Assembly (NCBI GenBank): GCA_965279035.1
Contig: OZ257142.1
Coordinates: forward strand, 2,432,001 to 2,496,000
Length of the DNA stretch: 64,000 nucleotides
Reading direction: 5' to 3'
Source of the DNA: Bacteroidia bacterium
Lineage (GTDB): Bacteria; Bacteroidota; Bacteroidia; M30B66
Both the position numbers and the translations under genes were made by a program. The notes under the pieces are model-generated. The model was not told the DNA's origin. It worked only from the letters and a program-made list of their open reading frames with translations, and searched no databases. Each line of letters starts with the position of its first letter. Position 1 is the first letter of the stretch. This document shows positions 36,344 through 52,532 of this stretch, one piece after another.

Positions 36344-36458
36344 GATGTGCTGGTAAATATTGTGCTTATGTGCTGATTATCCTGATAGCTATCCGGAGAA
36401 GTGCTGATTGAAAATGTGCTGATTTGCTGATTATCCTGCTAAAAACAGACGATGTGCA
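36344..36458 (+). repeat. Degenerate short repeats of (A)TGTGCTGA, same family as the 51424-51514 array
   Basis: tgatgtgctg, tgtgctta-tgtgctga, gtgctgat, atgtgctga-tttgctga and gatgtgc units. Confidence 0.7.
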
Positions 36459-36496
36459 AGTGGAAAATAGATTGCTGTTTATCGTTTAGTGGATAT

Positions 36497-36653
36497 TTTG
36501 AGTTTCCCAACAGCATCCCCGAAATTCATTCCGGGTTTGATGTTTTAATTTAAAGTTTGAGTTTCCCAACAGCATCCCCGGAATTCATTCCGGGATTTAT
36601 AAGTTAATTTGATGTTTGAGTTTCCCAACAGCATCCCCGAAATTCATTCCAGA
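36497..36653. repeat. Three tandem copies (59-bp period) of a 36-39 bp hairpin-containing repeat
   Basis: TTTGAGTTTCCCAACAGCATCCCCG(A/G)AATTCATTCC starts at 36497, 36556 and 36615, separated by about 20-nt AT-rich linkers. Confidence 0.9.
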
Positions 36654-36757
36654 AGAACAGAGTTGAATTTTTATTGTTTAAAATTCATTTGTTGAAATCT
36701 CTTTTCTAATTGATAGATCATAATAATCGAAATTTGAATTTCAATAATGAATGATTG

Positions 36758-49065: not shown

Positions 49066-50205
49066 ATGAAGTACCTCGTTCATCTTTGTCGCACACTTGT
49101 TGGCGTTCTTTTCATAATTTCTGGCTTAATCAAATCGAACGATACCATTGGTTTCGCCTATAAACTCGAAGAATATTACCAAGTTTTTGGTACAGAGTTT
49201 TTGATTTCATCGGCTGTATATCAAGCAATGGCTATTTGCATTGTTGAAGTAGTTTTAGGTGTCATGTTATTATTAGGATACCGTAAAAAACTCACTCTGT
49301 TTCTCTTAATGGCAATGATTGTGTTTTTCACTTTCCTAACATTTTACTCAGCCTACTTCAACAAAGTAACCGATTGCGGATGTTTTGGAGATGCGCTTCA
49401 CCTTACTCCTTGGCAATCTTTCGGAAAAGATGTTGCTCTTTTGATTTTGATATCAGTCCTTGTTGTTGGCAGCAAACACATTCAACAATTATTCAGCAAT
49501 AAAGTAACACTCGGCATTCTCTCAATTGCCTTGATTCTCAATATTGCATTCCCAATTTATACATACAATTATTTACCGGTGAAGGATTTCCGTCCTTATG
49601 CTATTGGCAACGATATCATTGAACAAATGAATGGTGGTCGCCCCGGGAAATTCGATACACGTTTTGTTTATAAAAATCTTCAAACCGGAAAGGATGAAGA
49701 AATGGCTAAACCGCCTTATACTGATACGATTAACTGGGAAATCGATACGTTAAAATGGAAGTTTGTCGATACAAAACAAATAGTTCTCGATCCAGGTGAG
49801 CAAGCTCCAATTCACGATTTCAGTATTAGCAGTGTCGAAGGTTCAGAATTCACTGATGATTTCTTAAAACACGACAGTCTGCATTTCTTCCTTGTTAGTT
49901 ATGATTTAACAAAAGCAGATCGAGGCGTACAACCTCAAATTAATGCATTCGCGCAAGCTTGTGAGAAAAACGGAATTCCATTCATCGGCTTATCTTCTAG
50001 CACACCTGAAGCAATCGACGAATTCCGCCACGAAGTACAAGCTCCTTACGATTACTACATTACCGACGCCACCCAACTAAAAACCATGATCCGCTCCAAT
50101 CCAGGACTCATGTTACTAAAAGGCTCTAAAGTCCTTGACATGTGGCATTATCACAGCTTTCCAAGCTTTGAAGATTTTAGAAAGAAATATCCTTCAAATA
50201 AGTGA
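49066..50205 (+). CDS. BT_3928-family DoxX/MauE-like membrane protein
   Basis: LFIISG.IK.ND..GF.YKL.EY, DCGCFGDA, DFRPY.IG and LKTMIRSNPG motifs. Confidence 0.85.
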   Translation: MKYLVHLCRTLVGVLFIISGLIKSNDTIGFAYKLEEYYQVFGTEFLISSAVYQAMAICIVEVVLGVMLLLGYRKKLTLFLLMAMIVFFTFLTFYSAYFNKVTDCGCFGDALHLTPWQSFGKDVALLILISVLVVGSKHIQQLFSNKVTLGILSIALILNIAFPIYTYNYLPVKDFRPYAIGNDIIEQMNGGRPGKFDTRFVYKNLQTGKDEEMAKPPYTDTINWEIDTLKWKFVDTKQIVLDPGEQAPIHDFSISSVEGSEFTDDFLKHDSLHFFLVSYDLTKADRGVQPQINAFAQACEKNGIPFIGLSSSTPEAIDEFRHEVQAPYDYYITDATQLKTMIRSNPGLMLLKGSKVLDMWHYHSFPSFEDFRKKYPSNK

Positions 50206-50230
50206 TGTGTATTCTAGGACTTATGCAAGT

Positions 50231-51211
50231 CTATGCAGCGTATTTTTTTAGATCAACATAGGGTGTTTTTCTTTTTACGACAGCAAATACTCTTGATACA
50301 AGTTTGTTTTTGACTGCATTGAGTGCACAATTATAATGTTTTCCTTCCTGGATTTTACGCTCCATATATTCTCTCATTTCGGTGTTATTTAATACTGCCG
50401 AACGCGCCGCCATTGTTAATACTCCATTGATTTTTCGATTTGATCTTCTATCGGTTTGTGTTTTCCCTTTTATGGATGTTCCTGATGATTTTTCGAATGG
50501 AGCTATTCCACTATAACATGCATATTGACGAGCATTGTCGAAGTATTCAAAGCCATTTGTTGTGGCGATTAAATACCAACTCGACACTGGTCCAACTCCT
50601 TTTATAGATTGAACTAATTCGTCGATTTGACGAAGATTATCATCTGACTTTATCAATGATTTGATTTCCTCTTCTACCAGTTTAAGTTTATCGTTAAAGG
50701 TCTTTAACAGATCCGTTTCGATTTGAAAAACTATATCTACACCAGTGGTTTTTGATGAGTTCTTAAGTCTGTTTTTGATGCCTATCTTCTCTTTTTCCAG
50801 ATGCGAACGCATACTCAAGAGCTTTCTCAGCTGCGCTACAGCACTCTTTGATAGTACCGTTGGGCTAAGCTGTTCTGCATGTAATGCAATGAAATTTGCG
50901 ATTCTTTGGGAGTCTATCTTATCATTTTTGCCTCGCTGAAGTCCAATAGAATACTTAATGTTTAAGGAGGATTCCATGTAAAAACAGATCTTCTTTTCAC
51001 TCAAAAACACAGATAAATCCTCGCTATAAATACCCGTATGCTCAAAGCAAATGGCCATCGATTTTACACTCACTTTCAACTGCTTTAACCAAGCAAGCAT
51101 CAGTGTATAACCATCGATATCATTGCTAAAGACGTTGTGCTGAGATTGATTATGTAAATAAACATCCAGCGTTAATTTTGACACATCAATGCCAATAAAG
51201 TTCTTCTTCAT
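50231..51211 (-). CDS. IS110-family transposase/recombinase (DEDD RuvC-like domain plus Tnp serine domain)
   Basis: GIDVSK, FEHTG, KNDKID, SIKGVG, YSGIAP..KSSG and A.KNKL motifs; intact 326 aa. Confidence 0.95.
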   Translation of the reverse strand: MKKNFIGIDVSKLTLDVYLHNQSQHNVFSNDIDGYTLMLAWLKQLKVSVKSMAICFEHTGIYSEDLSVFLSEKKICFYMESSLNIKYSIGLQRGKNDKIDSQRIANFIALHAEQLSPTVLSKSAVAQLRKLLSMRSHLEKEKIGIKNRLKNSSKTTGVDIVFQIETDLLKTFNDKLKLVEEEIKSLIKSDDNLRQIDELVQSIKGVGPVSSWYLIATTNGFEYFDNARQYACYSGIAPFEKSSGTSIKGKTQTDRRSNRKINGVLTMAARSAVLNNTEMREYMERKIQEGKHYNCALNAVKNKLVSRVFAVVKRKTPYVDLKKYAA

Positions 51212-51225
51212 ACTTTTGTTTTTAA

Positions 51226-51410
51226 GTGTTGCTCTTGGCTAAAACCTTTAATAGATCTCGAAGTCTAAAATTCTAGCTGGCCATTAACAACATGGTTAAA
51301 GGAAACGGGGACTCATACACACCTTAGGGATTTAAAGACCTAGCTGATGAGATAGTTCACCCCGTTTCTTTGTTTATTTTCAGTCAAGATATCTCAACTA
51401 AAATAATAGT
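51226..51410 (-). ncRNA. Predicted IS110 bridge RNA (5' stem-loop, target-binding loop, donor-binding loop)
   Basis: Three nested stems seen by eye; loop sequences match the flanking target and the reconstructed circle junction (see findings). Boundaries are approximate. Confidence 0.8.
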
Positions 51411-51423
51411 GCAAGTCTAAAGG

Positions 51424-51514
51424 CTGATGTGCTAGTGTGCTGATGTGCTAGTGTGATAGTGTGCTGGTTTGTTATCCTTATCAGCACATTAGCACATAAA
51501 CTAATTAGCACATT
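51424..51514. repeat. 8-bp-period tandem repeats in inverted arms (CTGATGTG/CTAGTGTG x5 ... TCAGCACA/TTAGCACA x3)
   Basis: Left arm 51424-51466 and reverse-complement right arm 51481-51514, ending at the gpsA stop codon. Confidence 0.85.
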
Positions 51515-52532
51515 ATTTAAGTTTCGCTTCCAACACTCTGATCTCTCTTGAAGGAGAACCTCCTTCATAAAGGATGCGGTGGACAAAATCGCAAATCGGT
51601 AAATCAACTCCTAGGCTTTTGTTGACCTCGTTGAGTGAATGAACTGCGTAAAAACCTTCGGCGATCATATTCATCTCGAGCTGTGCCGATTTAACGGTAT
51701 AGCCTTTTCCAATCATCTGTCCGAAAATACGGTTACGACTGAATTGTGAGTAGGCAGTTACGAGCAAATCTCCCAAATAGGCACTTTCGTTTAAGTCGCG
51801 ATTGACATTAGGAACGGCTGCATCGAGAAAACGCTTCATTTCCTGCATGGCATTCGAAACCAGAACTGCTTGGAAATTATCCCCGTAATTCATCCCACGA
51901 GTAATACCAACCGCCAACGAAATAATATTTTTCATAACCGTTGCATATTCAATGCCTTGTACATCATTCAAAATCGTGTGTGTATGAATAAACCGACAGT
52001 TGAGAATATGAGCCATGCGTAAAGCCAATTCTTCATTCACTGCCGAAACGGTCAAATAGGATTGTCGCTCCAAGGCAACTTCTTCGGAATGACAAGGACC
52101 GGCGATAATACCCATTTGTTTTGGGTGAATGCCAATGCTTGTATGCAGGTAATCAGTAATGATTTCGTGTCTTTCGGGAATCATGCCTTTGATGGCAGAG
52201 AATACCGATTTTCCATGAAATGCATCTTTAGATAAACCCGACAAGGTTTGATGCACAAATGCAGCAGGCAAAGCCAAAATGATCATTTCCGAACCAGCTA
52301 TAACGGCTGATAAATCGGAGGAGGGATGCACTTTGTTCATGTCGAGCTGAATATCGCTCAGATAGCGCGGATTGTGTGAAAACTGCGCAATGTGCTGTAC
52401 TTGCTCTTCCGAACGCATCCACCAATGAACATGAATGGGACGTTCGTTTAAGATTTTAACAATGGCTGTAGCCCAACTTCCTGCACCTATTACGGCAACC
52501 GAAGGCATATGAGCAGATGGTTGATCGCTCAT
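51513..52532 (-). CDS. gpsA: NAD(P)H-dependent glycerol-3-phosphate dehydrogenase
   Basis: GAGSWATA, AIKG, GPCHSEEVA, MKNI, GDLLVT.YS..SRNR and AEG motifs. Confidence 0.95.
   Translation of the reverse strand: MSDQPSAHMPSVAVIGAGSWATAIVKILNERPIHVHWWMRSEEQVQHIAQFSHNPRYLSDIQLDMNKVHPSSDLSAVIAGSEMIILALPAAFVHQTLSGLSKDAFHGKSVFSAIKGMIPERHEIITDYLHTSIGIHPKQMGIIAGPCHSEEVALERQSYLTVSAVNEELALRMAHILNCRFIHTHTILNDVQGIEYATVMKNIISLAVGITRGMNYGDNFQAVLVSNAMQEMKRFLDAAVPNVNRDLNESAYLGDLLVTAYSQFSRNRIFGQMIGKGYTVKSAQLEMNMIAEGFYAVHSLNEVNKSLGVDLPICDFVHRILYEGGSPSREIRVLEAKLK

What the first reader, a model, noticed from the sequence alone, without database searches (positions are those of the whole stretch)
50204..51431. 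IS110 element with a readable bridge RNA whose four guides match its donor junction and target
On the minus strand the non-coding end shows, in IS621-like order, a 5' stem-loop (about 51373-51406), a target loop closed by AAAGAAACGGGG/CCCCGUUUCCUUU (51371-51298), and a donor loop closed by UGUUGUU..UGGC/GCCA..AGCAACA (51292-51227). The reconstructed donor is CTAGAAT-AC-CTTTA. Its left guide CUAGAAU (51276-51270) matches 7/7, and its right guide UAAAGGU (51250-51244) is the exact reverse complement of ACCTTTA. The reconstructed target is CACATCA-GC-ACATC. Its left guide CUCAUCAGC (51351-51343) matches 8/9, and its right guide GGUGUGU (51323-51317) pairs at all 7 positions with two wobbles. Bridge RNAs are an established IS110 mechanism. 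What this adds is an apparently intact Bacteroidota programmable recombinase with its own specificity and a non-CT core.
Basis: partly seen in the sequence, partly recalled or inferred. Interest (0 to 1): 0.9.

Follow-up and report, generated by a model that had tools for sequence, protein, structure and literature searches.

The report
Intact IS110 element with bridge RNA
This is a complete IS110-type jumping gene whose own small RNA carries four short guides that match the element's ends and its insertion site, a known mechanism seen here in a Bacteroidota lineage with a different cut-site sequence.

Summary
On the minus strand, 51422-50209 is a 1,214-bp IS110-family element. It has a 326-aa recombinase (PF01548 + PF02371) that keeps all five IS621 catalytic residues. 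The 210-nt left end folds into a 5' hairpin, a target loop and a donor loop.

Relatives support the reading. In ten left and ten right junctions of the 75-96% clade, three left-guide variants and three right-guide variants each match their own flanks. A covariance model built from the clade finds the same RNA upstream of the gene in 15 of 30 distant Bacteroidota homologues. In 15 of these RNAs, 31 of 34 base pairs covary. Cognate guide-flank matches beat every one of 20,000 random re-pairings on both sides.

The source run holds further copies at similar sites.

No RNA, circle or activity data exist. This is a new member of a known kind.

Two details depart from IS621. The core is G-C in the target and A-C in the donor, so only the C is shared. 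The left end also carries a Bacteroidota-type -7 box.

The parts
50209..51422 (-). Inserted IS110-family element, 1,214 bp. It runs from left end CTTTAGAC... to right end ...CTAGAAT-AC.
   Evidence: The junctions are conserved in 10 left and 10 right junctions of relatives, and the flanks diverge right outside them. In the source run the unitig 50206-51426 is separate from the flank unitigs and has 3.4-3.7 times their depth.
51423..51431 (-). Left target half-site plus target core: CACATCA + GC.
   Evidence: It matches the LTG at 8 of 9 positions. It lies in an array of 8/16-nt units.
50204..50208 (-). Right target half-site ACATC.
   Evidence: It pairs with RTG positions 1-5, with one G-T wobble.
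51412..51419 (-). TAGACTTG at left-end positions 4-11: candidate Bacteroidota -7 promoter box (consensus TAnnTTTG).
   Evidence: 12 of 17 left ends of the family carry TAnn[CT]TTG. The consensus comes from passages in PMC7366714 and PMC2483708. The function is inferred.
51378..51403 (-). 5' stem-loop of the bridge RNA: 11 pairs, 3 of them wobble.
   Evidence: MFE fold.
51300..51370 (-). Target-binding loop with its closing stem (51370-51360 pairs with 51310-51300) and inner hairpin (51342-51325).
51343..51351 (-). Left target guide CUCAUCA + GC.
   Evidence: Positions 4-9 equal the left flank in 10 of 10 clade junctions. Three guide variants each match their own flanks.
51315..51323 (-). Right target guide GGUGU + core-reading GU (51323-51317), followed by handshake guide AU (51316-51315).
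   Evidence: Position 14 covaries G:C or A:T in 6 of 6 linked copies. The handshake guide pairs with donor positions 6-7.
51227..51292 (-). Donor-binding loop with its closing stem (51292-51280 pairs with 51239-51227) and inner hairpin (51267-51252).
   Evidence: 6 of 11 closing pairs change on both sides even among the 5 clade sequences. All of them do among 15 sequences.
51270..51276 (-). Left donor guide CUAGAAU.
   Evidence: It equals 50217-50211. It covaries with the right end in distant relatives L066, L063 and L062.
51244..51250 (-). Right donor guide UAAAG + core-reading GU.
   Evidence: It is the reverse complement of A-C + CTTTA. It covaries with the left end in L069 and L061.
50231..51211 (-). 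Recombinase gene, 326 aa.
   Evidence: PF01548 at 2.5e-16 and PF02371 at 2.2e-18. D9, E57, D97, D100 and S243 align with IS621 D11, E60, D102, D105 and S241.
50209..50217 (-). Left donor half-site CTAGAAT (50217-50211) plus donor core AC (50210-50209).

Best explanation
This is a functional-looking IS110-group insertion sequence that works like IS621.

The non-coding left end encodes a bridge RNA of about 180 nt. Its target loop reads the insertion site: the left guide reads the bottom strand of CATCA-GC, and the right guide reads the top strand of (G/A)C-ACATC. Its donor loop reads the joined right-end/left-end junction: CTAGAAT on one side and AC-CTTTA on the other.

A DEDD/serine recombinase tetramer would cut the top strands after the shared C and exchange them. 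After exchange, the two bases 3' of the right target guide (AU) pair with donor positions 6-7 (AT), the 'handshake'.

The natural target is a repeated intergenic motif of the ATCAGCACATC kind. Relatives retarget by point changes in the two target guides.

Shown here: the anatomy, the guide-junction complementarity, the covariation, the intact catalytic residues, and more than one copy in the source run.

Inferred: transcription (probably from a -7 box TAGACTTG at the left end, with the upstream element supplied by the right end in the circle), circle formation, and the catalytic steps, which are taken from IS621.
For: 1. Family and residues.
- Pfam PF01548 + PF02371.
- PDB hits ISCro4 9t56 (E 1.6e-25) and IS621 8wt6 (E 1.5e-22), with D/E/D/D/S all aligned.

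2. All four guides match the element's own junctions; 0 of 20,000 shuffles give all four.

3. Covariation in the 75-96% clade.
- Guide CATCAGC goes with flanks (C/T)ATCAGC, guide AAATAGC with (A/G)AATAGC, and guide AATTAGC with CATTAGC.
- Positions 4-9 are identical in 10 of 10 left junctions.
- Right-guide position 14 is G opposite C (window, L036, L035) or A opposite T (L001, L041, L047), so 6 of 6 linked copies pair.
- L035 has A where the window has the wobble G, giving 8 straight Watson-Crick pairs.
- One MAG (G003) holds two right-guide alleles, twice each. Its right flanks are ACATT twice and ACATC once.

4. Family level.
- Model R1, built from 5 clade RNAs, finds the RNA just upstream of the gene in 15 of 30 loci of 27-40% identical homologues (E 3e-20 to 4e-3).
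- On 15 RNAs, 91.2% of cells pair and 31 of 34 pairs change on both sides. Slid controls give 31-46% paired, and 0 of 500 shuffles reach the observed values.
- Junctions were set without using the target loop. The cognate guide-flank longest match averages 6.25 against 3.30 on the left (16 loci) and 5.38 against 3.24 on the right (13 loci). On each side, 0 of 20,000 re-pairings reach the observed sum.
- The donor guides covary with the ends in L069, L061, L066, L063 and L062.

5. Handshake. The target-loop handshake bases pair with donor positions 6-7 in 34 of 40 cells, and with their own target in 9 of 40.

6. Mobility. In the source run the interior unitig has depth 748 against 205-219 for the flanks. 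Other contigs join the same ends to other flanks: a left flank ending ...CTAATCAGC (8 of 9 to the left guide) and a right flank starting ACATCA. A roughly 90% related contig in a wastewater run has the two flanks without the element.
Against: - There is no RNA run, no circle junction and no activity data.
- The fold energy is ordinary, z = -1.65.
- Left-guide positions 1-3 are often unmatched: 6-8 of 9 positions match across copies.
- The window's right guide needs a G-T wobble against DNA.
- The two bases after the left donor guide (UU) do not match the donor core A-C.
- The donor-loop handshake shows no signal: 16 of 40 cells pair with the target against 19 of 40 with the donor.
- Some distant relatives do not fit: L062 scores 3 on the left and 2 on the right, L073 scores 3 on the right, and L070 and L063 score 4 on the left.
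- The alignment used was fitted to the model's structure.
- The source run may be the sample the window was assembled from, so it is not independent.
- The tool warns that depth is not a copy number.
Confidence: 0.88

Rival explanations
1. The element is a dead or domesticated copy. The anatomy is that of a bridge-RNA IS, but it no longer moves in this genome.
For: Only one copy lies in the 64-kb window. There is no RNA or circle evidence. The exact protein is not in the 5.8-billion-protein collection; the best hit is 96% identical.
Against: The frame is open and the catalytic residues are intact. All four guides still match. The source run shows the same ends joined to other flanks and a 3.4-3.7-fold unitig depth. 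Copies at 87-96% identity occur in other data sets.
Confidence: 0.07
2. The 'guides' are protein-binding subterminal repeats or chance matches, not RNA guides. Under this view the target preference is read by the protein.
For: Each single match occurs in 1-3% of shuffles. The donor guides do not vary within the close clade, so there they cannot be told apart from conserved protein sites.
Against: The target guides covary with DNA outside the element, which element-borne protein sites would not do. The stems around the guides covary. The polarity rule holds at all four guides: the left guides have the sense of the top strand and the right guides are its reverse complement. All four matches together occur in 0 of 20,000 shuffles.
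Confidence: 0.02
3. The element makes a 7-bp target duplication CACATCA and has other boundaries (GCCTTTAG...GAATA).
For: CACATCA stands on both sides of the element in the window. A related contig without the element has a single CACATCA.
Against: Other copies have no such duplication: L001 has GAAATAGC against ACATTTCG, and L041 has CGAATAGC against ACACTTTA. The flank is a tandem array of that unit, and its copy number differs between strains. Unoccupied motif copies read ...ATCAGCACATC... in L036 and ...AAAAAGCACACT... in L047.
Confidence: 0.02

Closest known systems
IS621 (E. coli) recombinase and bridge RNA (Durrant 2024, PMC11208160; Hiraizumi 2024, PMC11208158; passages read)
   Same: - The protein is 326 aa in both, with the same two domains and the same five catalytic residues aligned.
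- The RNA lies in the left end upstream of the gene, in the order 5' hairpin, target loop, donor loop.
- The left guides have the sense of the top strand and the right guides are its reverse complement.
- The core is read by the guides, and the handshake bases lie 3' of the right target guide.
   Different: - The proteins are distant (phmmer E 1.5e-22).
- The core is G-C in the target and A-C in the donor, not C-T. The invariant base is C9, not T9.
- The right target guide covers 7 nt or more, against 4 in IS621.
- The promoter candidate is of the Bacteroidota -7 type, not sigma-70.
- Rfam 15 gives no match to the RNA at E up to 1.
ISCro4 / IS622 (Citrobacter rodentium), PDB 9t56; preprint 10.1101/2025.05.14.653916 (passages read)
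   Same: It is the best solved-structure match (E 1.6e-25). It has the same system architecture.
   Different: It has a C-T core, is proteobacterial and is a close relative of IS621. The element here belongs to a separate Bacteroidota clade.
REP-targeting IS110 members ISPpu9 / ISPpu10 of Pseudomonas putida (PMC12288879 and preprint 10.64898/2026.03.19.712850; abstracts in search listing only)
   Same: They insert into a repeated intergenic sequence present in many copies.
   Different: The target motif is different (arrays of 8-nt ATCAGCAC-type units), and so are the host phylum and the ends.
IS1111-group elements with seekRNA (PMC11187229; abstract and one term search)
   Same: They have the same DEDD transposase type and RNA-guided target choice.
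   Different: By that paper's abstract, IS1111 members have subterminal inverted repeats. That their RNA lies downstream of the gene is recalled, not read. Here the RNA is upstream of the gene, as in the IS110 group.

Membership tests
IS110 family (IS110 group) bridge recombinase system | DEDD RuvC-like N-terminal domain plus Tnp C-terminal domain | tested here: met
   PF01548 (residues 6-151, E 2.5e-16) and PF02371 (residues 198-283, E 2.2e-18), both above their cut-offs.
IS110 family (IS110 group) bridge recombinase system | Catalytic D, E, D, D and serine | tested here: met
   D9, E57, D97, D100 and S243 align with IS621 D11, E60, D102, D105 and S241. The chain numbering is +2. The residue roles come from PMC11208158.
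IS110 family (IS110 group) bridge recombinase system | Non-coding RNA in the left end, upstream of the gene, with a 5' hairpin and two internal loops | tested here: met
   MFE fold. 34 pairs are 94.7% paired in 5 sequences and 91.2% paired in 15 sequences, with 31 of 34 pairs covarying.
IS110 family (IS110 group) bridge recombinase system | First loop: left and right guides complementary to the two strands of the target | tested here: met
   8 of 9 and 7 of 7 (with wobble) in the window. There is covariation in the clade and in the family.
IS110 family (IS110 group) bridge recombinase system | Second loop: guides complementary to the joined right end and left end | tested here: met
   7 of 7 and 7 of 7. 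There is covariation with the ends in L069, L061, L066, L063 and L062.
IS110 family (IS110 group) bridge recombinase system | Handshake guides pair with positions 6-7 of the other DNA, not of their own | tested here: inconclusive
   Target-loop handshake: 34 of 40 cells pair with the donor and 9 of 40 with the own target. Donor-loop handshake: 16 of 40 against 19 of 40, so no signal.
IS110 family (IS110 group) bridge recombinase system | Core dinucleotide shared by donor and target and present at both junctions | tested here: inconclusive
   Only the C is shared. The left junction reads G-C in 10 of 10 and the right junction A-C in 10 of 10. Relatives have T-C or G-C on both sides.
IS621-like subgroup | C-T core | tested here: not met
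   The core is G-C / A-C. The element is therefore not filed in the IS621 subgroup, only in the family.
IS110 family (IS110 group) bridge recombinase system | No terminal inverted repeats and no multi-base target duplication | tested here: met
   The ends CTTTAGAC... and ...CTAGAATAC are not inverted repeats. No inverted pair of 40 nt or more is in the window; shorter repeats were judged by eye only. The flanks of L001 and L041 show no duplication.
IS110 family (IS110 group) bridge recombinase system | RNA is made; circular intermediate with a junction promoter; RNA-programmed recombination | not testable with these tools
   No RNA holder is listed and only contigs could be laid. Only a candidate -7 box was found.

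The most novel reading that the evidence does not exclude
In this Bacteroidota clade, donor and target share only one base, C9. Position 8 is A in the donor and G in the target, and it stays so in 10 of 10 right and 10 of 10 left junctions across elements that are only 75% identical.

Both right-hand guides carry a U there, which can read A or G.

In IS621 the bottom strand is cut four bases away from the top-strand cut, so positions 6-9 would form a mismatch. A difference that never mixes is what transfer of the top strand alone would leave behind (copy-out, top-strand paste-in, as two recent preprints propose).

If this is right, the natural junctions of this clade are a sequence record of the strandedness of IS110 transposition. 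They would also show that the core requirement can shrink to a single C.
Probability: 0.3. Interest if true: 0.6.

Novelty: new member of a known kind. Interest (0 to 1): 0.4.

Why it matters
Bridge recombinases are sought as compact programmable DNA-insertion enzymes. Most work rests on IS621 and IS622, which have a C-T core.

- This element and the family model built here define a Bacteroidota clade with an invariant C at core position 9 and a free position 8 (A-C, G-C or T-C). That would open other target sites.
- The clade shows natural retargeting by one or two base changes in the guides, including two guide alleles in one genome.
- The constant A/G difference at position 8 offers a cheap natural test of whether one or both strands are transferred.
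- For genome annotation, the finding explains an intergenic repeat array as an insertion hot spot.
- Model R1 gives a way to mark such RNAs, which Rfam 15 did not detect here.

Tried and rejected
- **Own genome:** none is held, so all copies and empty sites of the source could not be listed.
- **Rfam 15:** nothing at E up to 1 in 49500-52000.
- **Window repeats:** no second copy of the element.
- **Metagenome scan with a 17-nt word:** 42 loci came back, and 38 were unrelated chance or other matches. Only L035, L036, L041 and L047 are relatives.
- **Sequencing runs:** no RNA holder is listed. All four runs laid were contigs, so starts, ends, strand, level and a circle junction could not be seen, and no right-end-to-left-end joint was listed.
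- **The X6 contig that skips the element:** it comes from a roughly 90% relative with one repeat unit fewer, so it is not a true empty site.
- **X5:** it carries the ATAG right-guide allele and a right flank ACATCA on separate unitigs, so the two cannot be linked.
- **Sigma-70 promoter scan:** 5 sites found against 4.8 expected, and no terminators.
- **Search for a second perfect 12-nt target in the window:** 0 matches with up to 1 mismatch.
- **Strict Bacteroidota junction promoter (TTTG, 17-23 nt, TAnn[CT]TTG):** present in 6 of 14 joined ends and 0 of 14 integrated ends. The window itself fails the strict pattern because it has CTTG, so this is kept only as a hypothesis.
- **Donor-loop handshake:** no signal.
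- **Phylum of the window:** gpsA is at best 53-54% identical in 201 sampled Bacteroidota genomes. That is compatible with Bacteroidota but not proof.
- **Plasmid collection:** only relatives at 37% identity or less, annotated 'IS110 family transposase'.
- **Left junctions of the 4 copies in G246:** they match the left guide poorly and at varying register. I did not resolve this.
- **L064:** its right end was not found.
- **7-bp duplication model:** rejected (see rivals).
- **Literature:** searches found no paper on bridge RNAs of Bacteroidota IS110 elements.
- **Not used:** no structure or complex prediction was run, because the family assignment did not need it.
Full report
**What is there**

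On the minus strand the window reads, in order: the 3' end of a gpsA-like gene (stop at 51513), an array of 8/16-nt units (51423-51515), and then the element.

The element starts at 51422 with CTTTAGACTTGCAC. It has 210 nt without a long frame, then a 326-aa frame (51211-50231). It ends with ...GTCCTAGAATAC at 50209, followed by ACATCACTTATT.

The protein has both IS110 domains: PF01548 at E 2.5e-16 and PF02371 at E 2.2e-18. Its only solved relatives are the bridge recombinases ISCro4 (9t56, E 1.6e-25) and IS621 (8wt6, E 1.5e-22). In the printed alignment, D9, E57, D97, D100 and S243 stand opposite IS621 D11, E60, D102, D105 and S241. The residue roles come from passages of PMC11208158.

**The observation**

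The MFE fold of 51431-51212 gives three features:
- an 11-pair 5' hairpin (51403-51378);
- a long stem, 51370-51360 with 51310-51300, that closes a large internal loop;
- a second long stem, 51292-51280 with 51239-51227, that closes another.

- The left donor guide equals 50217-50211.
- The right donor guide is the reverse complement of the terminal A-C plus the first five bases of the left end.
- The left target guide equals the nine bases left of the element at 8 of 9 positions.
- The right target guide pairs with G-C + ACATC at 7 of 7 positions with two wobbles, or with A-C + ACATC with one wobble.

In 20,000 shuffles of the 210-nt left end, the single matches occur 477, 487, 218 and 543 times. 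All four together never occur.

The fold energy itself is unremarkable (z = -1.65).

**Close relatives**

A peptide-pattern scan of one genome per species gave five loci:
- a full copy at 75% identity (L001, Bacteroidota MAG);
- a 3' part at 89% identity (L002, MAG labelled Chitinophaga);
- two contig ends of one Bacteroidia MAG that stop just inside the gene (L004, L005);
- a distant copy at 32% identity (L003, Bacteroidaceae MAG).

A 17-nt word of the target-loop stem, scanned over metagenome contigs, gave 42 loci. Four of them are relatives (L035, L036, L041, L047) and 38 are not. Searching the three MAGs with the element's DNA added two more left junctions and three right junctions in G003.

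All 10 left junctions read ...AGC then CTTTAGAC. All 10 right junctions read CTAGAATAC then ACA... The sequence diverges outside these points.

The target guides differ between copies, and the flanks differ with them.
- Left guides: CATCAGC goes with flanks CATCAGC or TATCAGC (window, L036, L004, L005, L053, L054). AAATAGC goes with AAATAGC or GAATAGC (L001, L047, L041). AATTAGC goes with CATTAGC (L035). Positions 4-9 are identical in 10 of 10.
- Right guides, in the six copies where guide and right flank lie on one contig: position 14 is G opposite C (window, L036, L035) or A opposite T (L001, L041, L047). At position 13, L035 has A opposite T where the window has G opposite T. L041 and L047 have G opposite C.

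G003 holds two right-guide alleles (AAGG and ATAG before GUGUGU), two copies each. Its three right-junction contigs start ACATT twice and ACATC once, the split those alleles predict, although left and right contigs are not linked.

**Structure**

On the five distinct clade RNAs, a hand-drawn IS621-like structure of 34 pairs is 94.7% paired. Seven pairs change on both sides, six of them in the donor-loop stem.

A covariance model was built from these five (R1). It was run on 30 loci of homologues found in 35 of 401 sampled Bacteroidota genomes (27-42% identity). It finds the RNA on the gene's strand, 0-42 nt upstream of the frame, in 15 of the 30 loci, at E 3e-20 to 4e-3. Four antisense matches over the palindromic stems were set aside.

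On the 15 best RNAs, 91.2% of 500 cells pair and 31 of 34 pairs change on both sides. Sliding the partners gives 31-46% paired. 0 of 500 shuffles reach the observed percentage paired, count of covarying pairs or covariation score. That alignment was fitted to the model, which favours the structure somewhat.

**Guides in the wider family**

I set the left junction by a short left-end motif. I set the right junction by a single exact match of the locus's own left donor guide downstream of the gene. Neither uses the target loop.

Junctions were found in 16 (left) and 13 (right) of 20 loci.

| Side | Loci | Cognate longest exact match (mean) | Non-cognate (mean) | Re-pairings reaching the observed sum |
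|---|---|---|---|---|
| Left (target-guide region vs its own flank) | 16 | 6.25 | 3.30 | 0 of 20,000 |
| Right | 13 | 5.38 | 3.24 | 0 of 20,000 |

The same holds with the window as the only member of its clade.
- Best cases: L060 and L073 (9 of 9 on the left); L066, L063 and L061 (7 of 7 on the right).
- Misses: L062 on both sides, L073 on the right, L070 and L063 on the left.

In L062 and L073 the right end is followed at once by a left-end-like sequence, so the right flank there is probably not a native target.

The donor guides are constant in the close clade but covary with the ends further out:
- L069 has left end TATTAG with right donor guide UAAUAGC.
- L061 has TCTTAGG with AGAGU.
- L066, L063 and L062 have right ends ATAACAAT, ATAGCAAT and ATGGAAAT, each equal to its own left donor guide.

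Element ends defined independently by comparing copies within one genome agree (G218, 3 copies; G246, 4 copies).

**Handshake and core**

In IS621 the two bases 3' of the right target guide pair with donor positions 6-7 after top-strand exchange. They must not pair with their own target (PMC11208158).

Here those bases are AU and the donor has AT. In relatives with donor AA they are UU. Over 20 RNAs, 34 of 40 cells pair with the donor and 9 of 40 with the own target. The donor-loop handshake gives no signal (16 against 19 of 40).

The core is not C-T. In the window clade the left junction has G-C and the right has A-C. The left target guide carries G-C, both right-hand guides carry G-U, and the left donor guide is followed by U-U. 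Relatives use T-C or G-C on both sides, and C9 is constant.

In IS621 the top strand is cut after position 9. The bottom strand is cut opposite positions 5|6, so positions 6-9 are mismatched after a double exchange anyway. A position-8 difference is therefore tolerable.

That the difference never mixes in 10 + 10 junctions is what top-strand-only transfer would give. Two preprints propose this (10.1101/2025.10.25.684509 and 10.64898/2026.08.31.748434; abstracts read). This remains an inference.

**Target and mobility**

The flanks are arrays of ATCAGCAC-type 8-nt units. A similar array lies at 36344-36441. Unoccupied motif copies next to relatives read LT-GC-RT without the element (L036, L002, L047). 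That supports the reconstructed target and argues against a 7-bp duplication.

In the best-holding run (possibly the window's own sample), the interior unitig 50206-51426 has depth 748 against 219 and 205 for the flanking unitigs. Those flanking unitigs end about 25 nt inside the element.

Other contigs in that run join the same ends to other flanks. One left flank ends CTAATCAGC (8 of 9 to the guide). One right flank starts ACATCA followed by ACACATCAGC. Two short unitigs look like further left junctions. The tool warns that depth is not a copy number, so I claim only more than one copy.

A wastewater run holds a roughly 90% related contig with both flanks and no element. It and run X5 also hold element fragments with the ATAG guide allele.

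**Expression (inferred)**

Left-end positions 4-11 read TAGACTTG. That is one letter off the Bacteroidota -7 box TAnnTTTG (passages in PMC7366714 and PMC2483708). 12 of 17 family left ends carry TAnn[CT]TTG.

A TTTG 17-23 nt upstream appears only when the right end is joined to the left end: in 6 of 14 joined ends and 0 of 14 integrated ends. The window has CTTG there and fails the strict pattern.

This mirrors the IS621 junction promoter in another promoter dialect, but it is a hypothesis. No RNA run was listed.

**Verdict**

This is an intact IS110-group element whose bridge RNA can be read base by base.

The mechanism is established, so it is a new member of a known kind. What it adds:
- a Bacteroidota clade model;
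- a one-base shared core with an A/G split at position 8;
- natural guide alleles;
- a phylum-specific promoter candidate.

Interest is moderate.

Noticed in passing
window 36478-36654: Three tandem 59-nt units, each with about 38 conserved and about 21 variable bases. Their nature is unknown.
   Followed up: no
window 36344-36441 and 51423-51515: Arrays of 8-nt units of the GTGCTGAT / ATCAGCAC kind. This is the repeated intergenic motif that the element and its close relatives insert into. The copy number differs in a related strain (8 bases left out at 51456).
   Followed up: partly
L062 (right end near 2510 in gene orientation) and L073: In two distant relatives the right end is followed at once by a left-end-like sequence, and the right flank does not match the right target guide. 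This may be a tandem or remnant copy, or an insertion next to another element.
   Followed up: no
G003 contigs L050, L051, L053, L054, L052, L055, L056: One MAG carries two alleles of the right target guide, two copies each, and right flanks of two kinds in matching proportion. This looks like natural retargeting within one genome.
   Followed up: partly
L061, L089, L090, L091 (G246, 4 identical copies): The right end and right flanks fit the guides: ACAGAT-type flanks match at 6-7 of 7. The left flanks fit the left guide poorly and at a shifting register, and position 8 reads T, A, A, T.
   Followed up: partly
window 51225-51212: TAAAAA lies 8 nt before the recombinase ATG. A Flavobacterium ribosome-binding consensus TAAAA, 2-12 bases from the start codon, is described in a passage of PMC2483708.
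   Followed up: no
L058: The left target guide (ACGGAGGC) resembles the right flank of the same copy (ACGGAGG, repeated again downstream). As in the window, the target appears to be a tandem motif. The contig starts at the left end, so the left flank is unknown.
   Followed up: no
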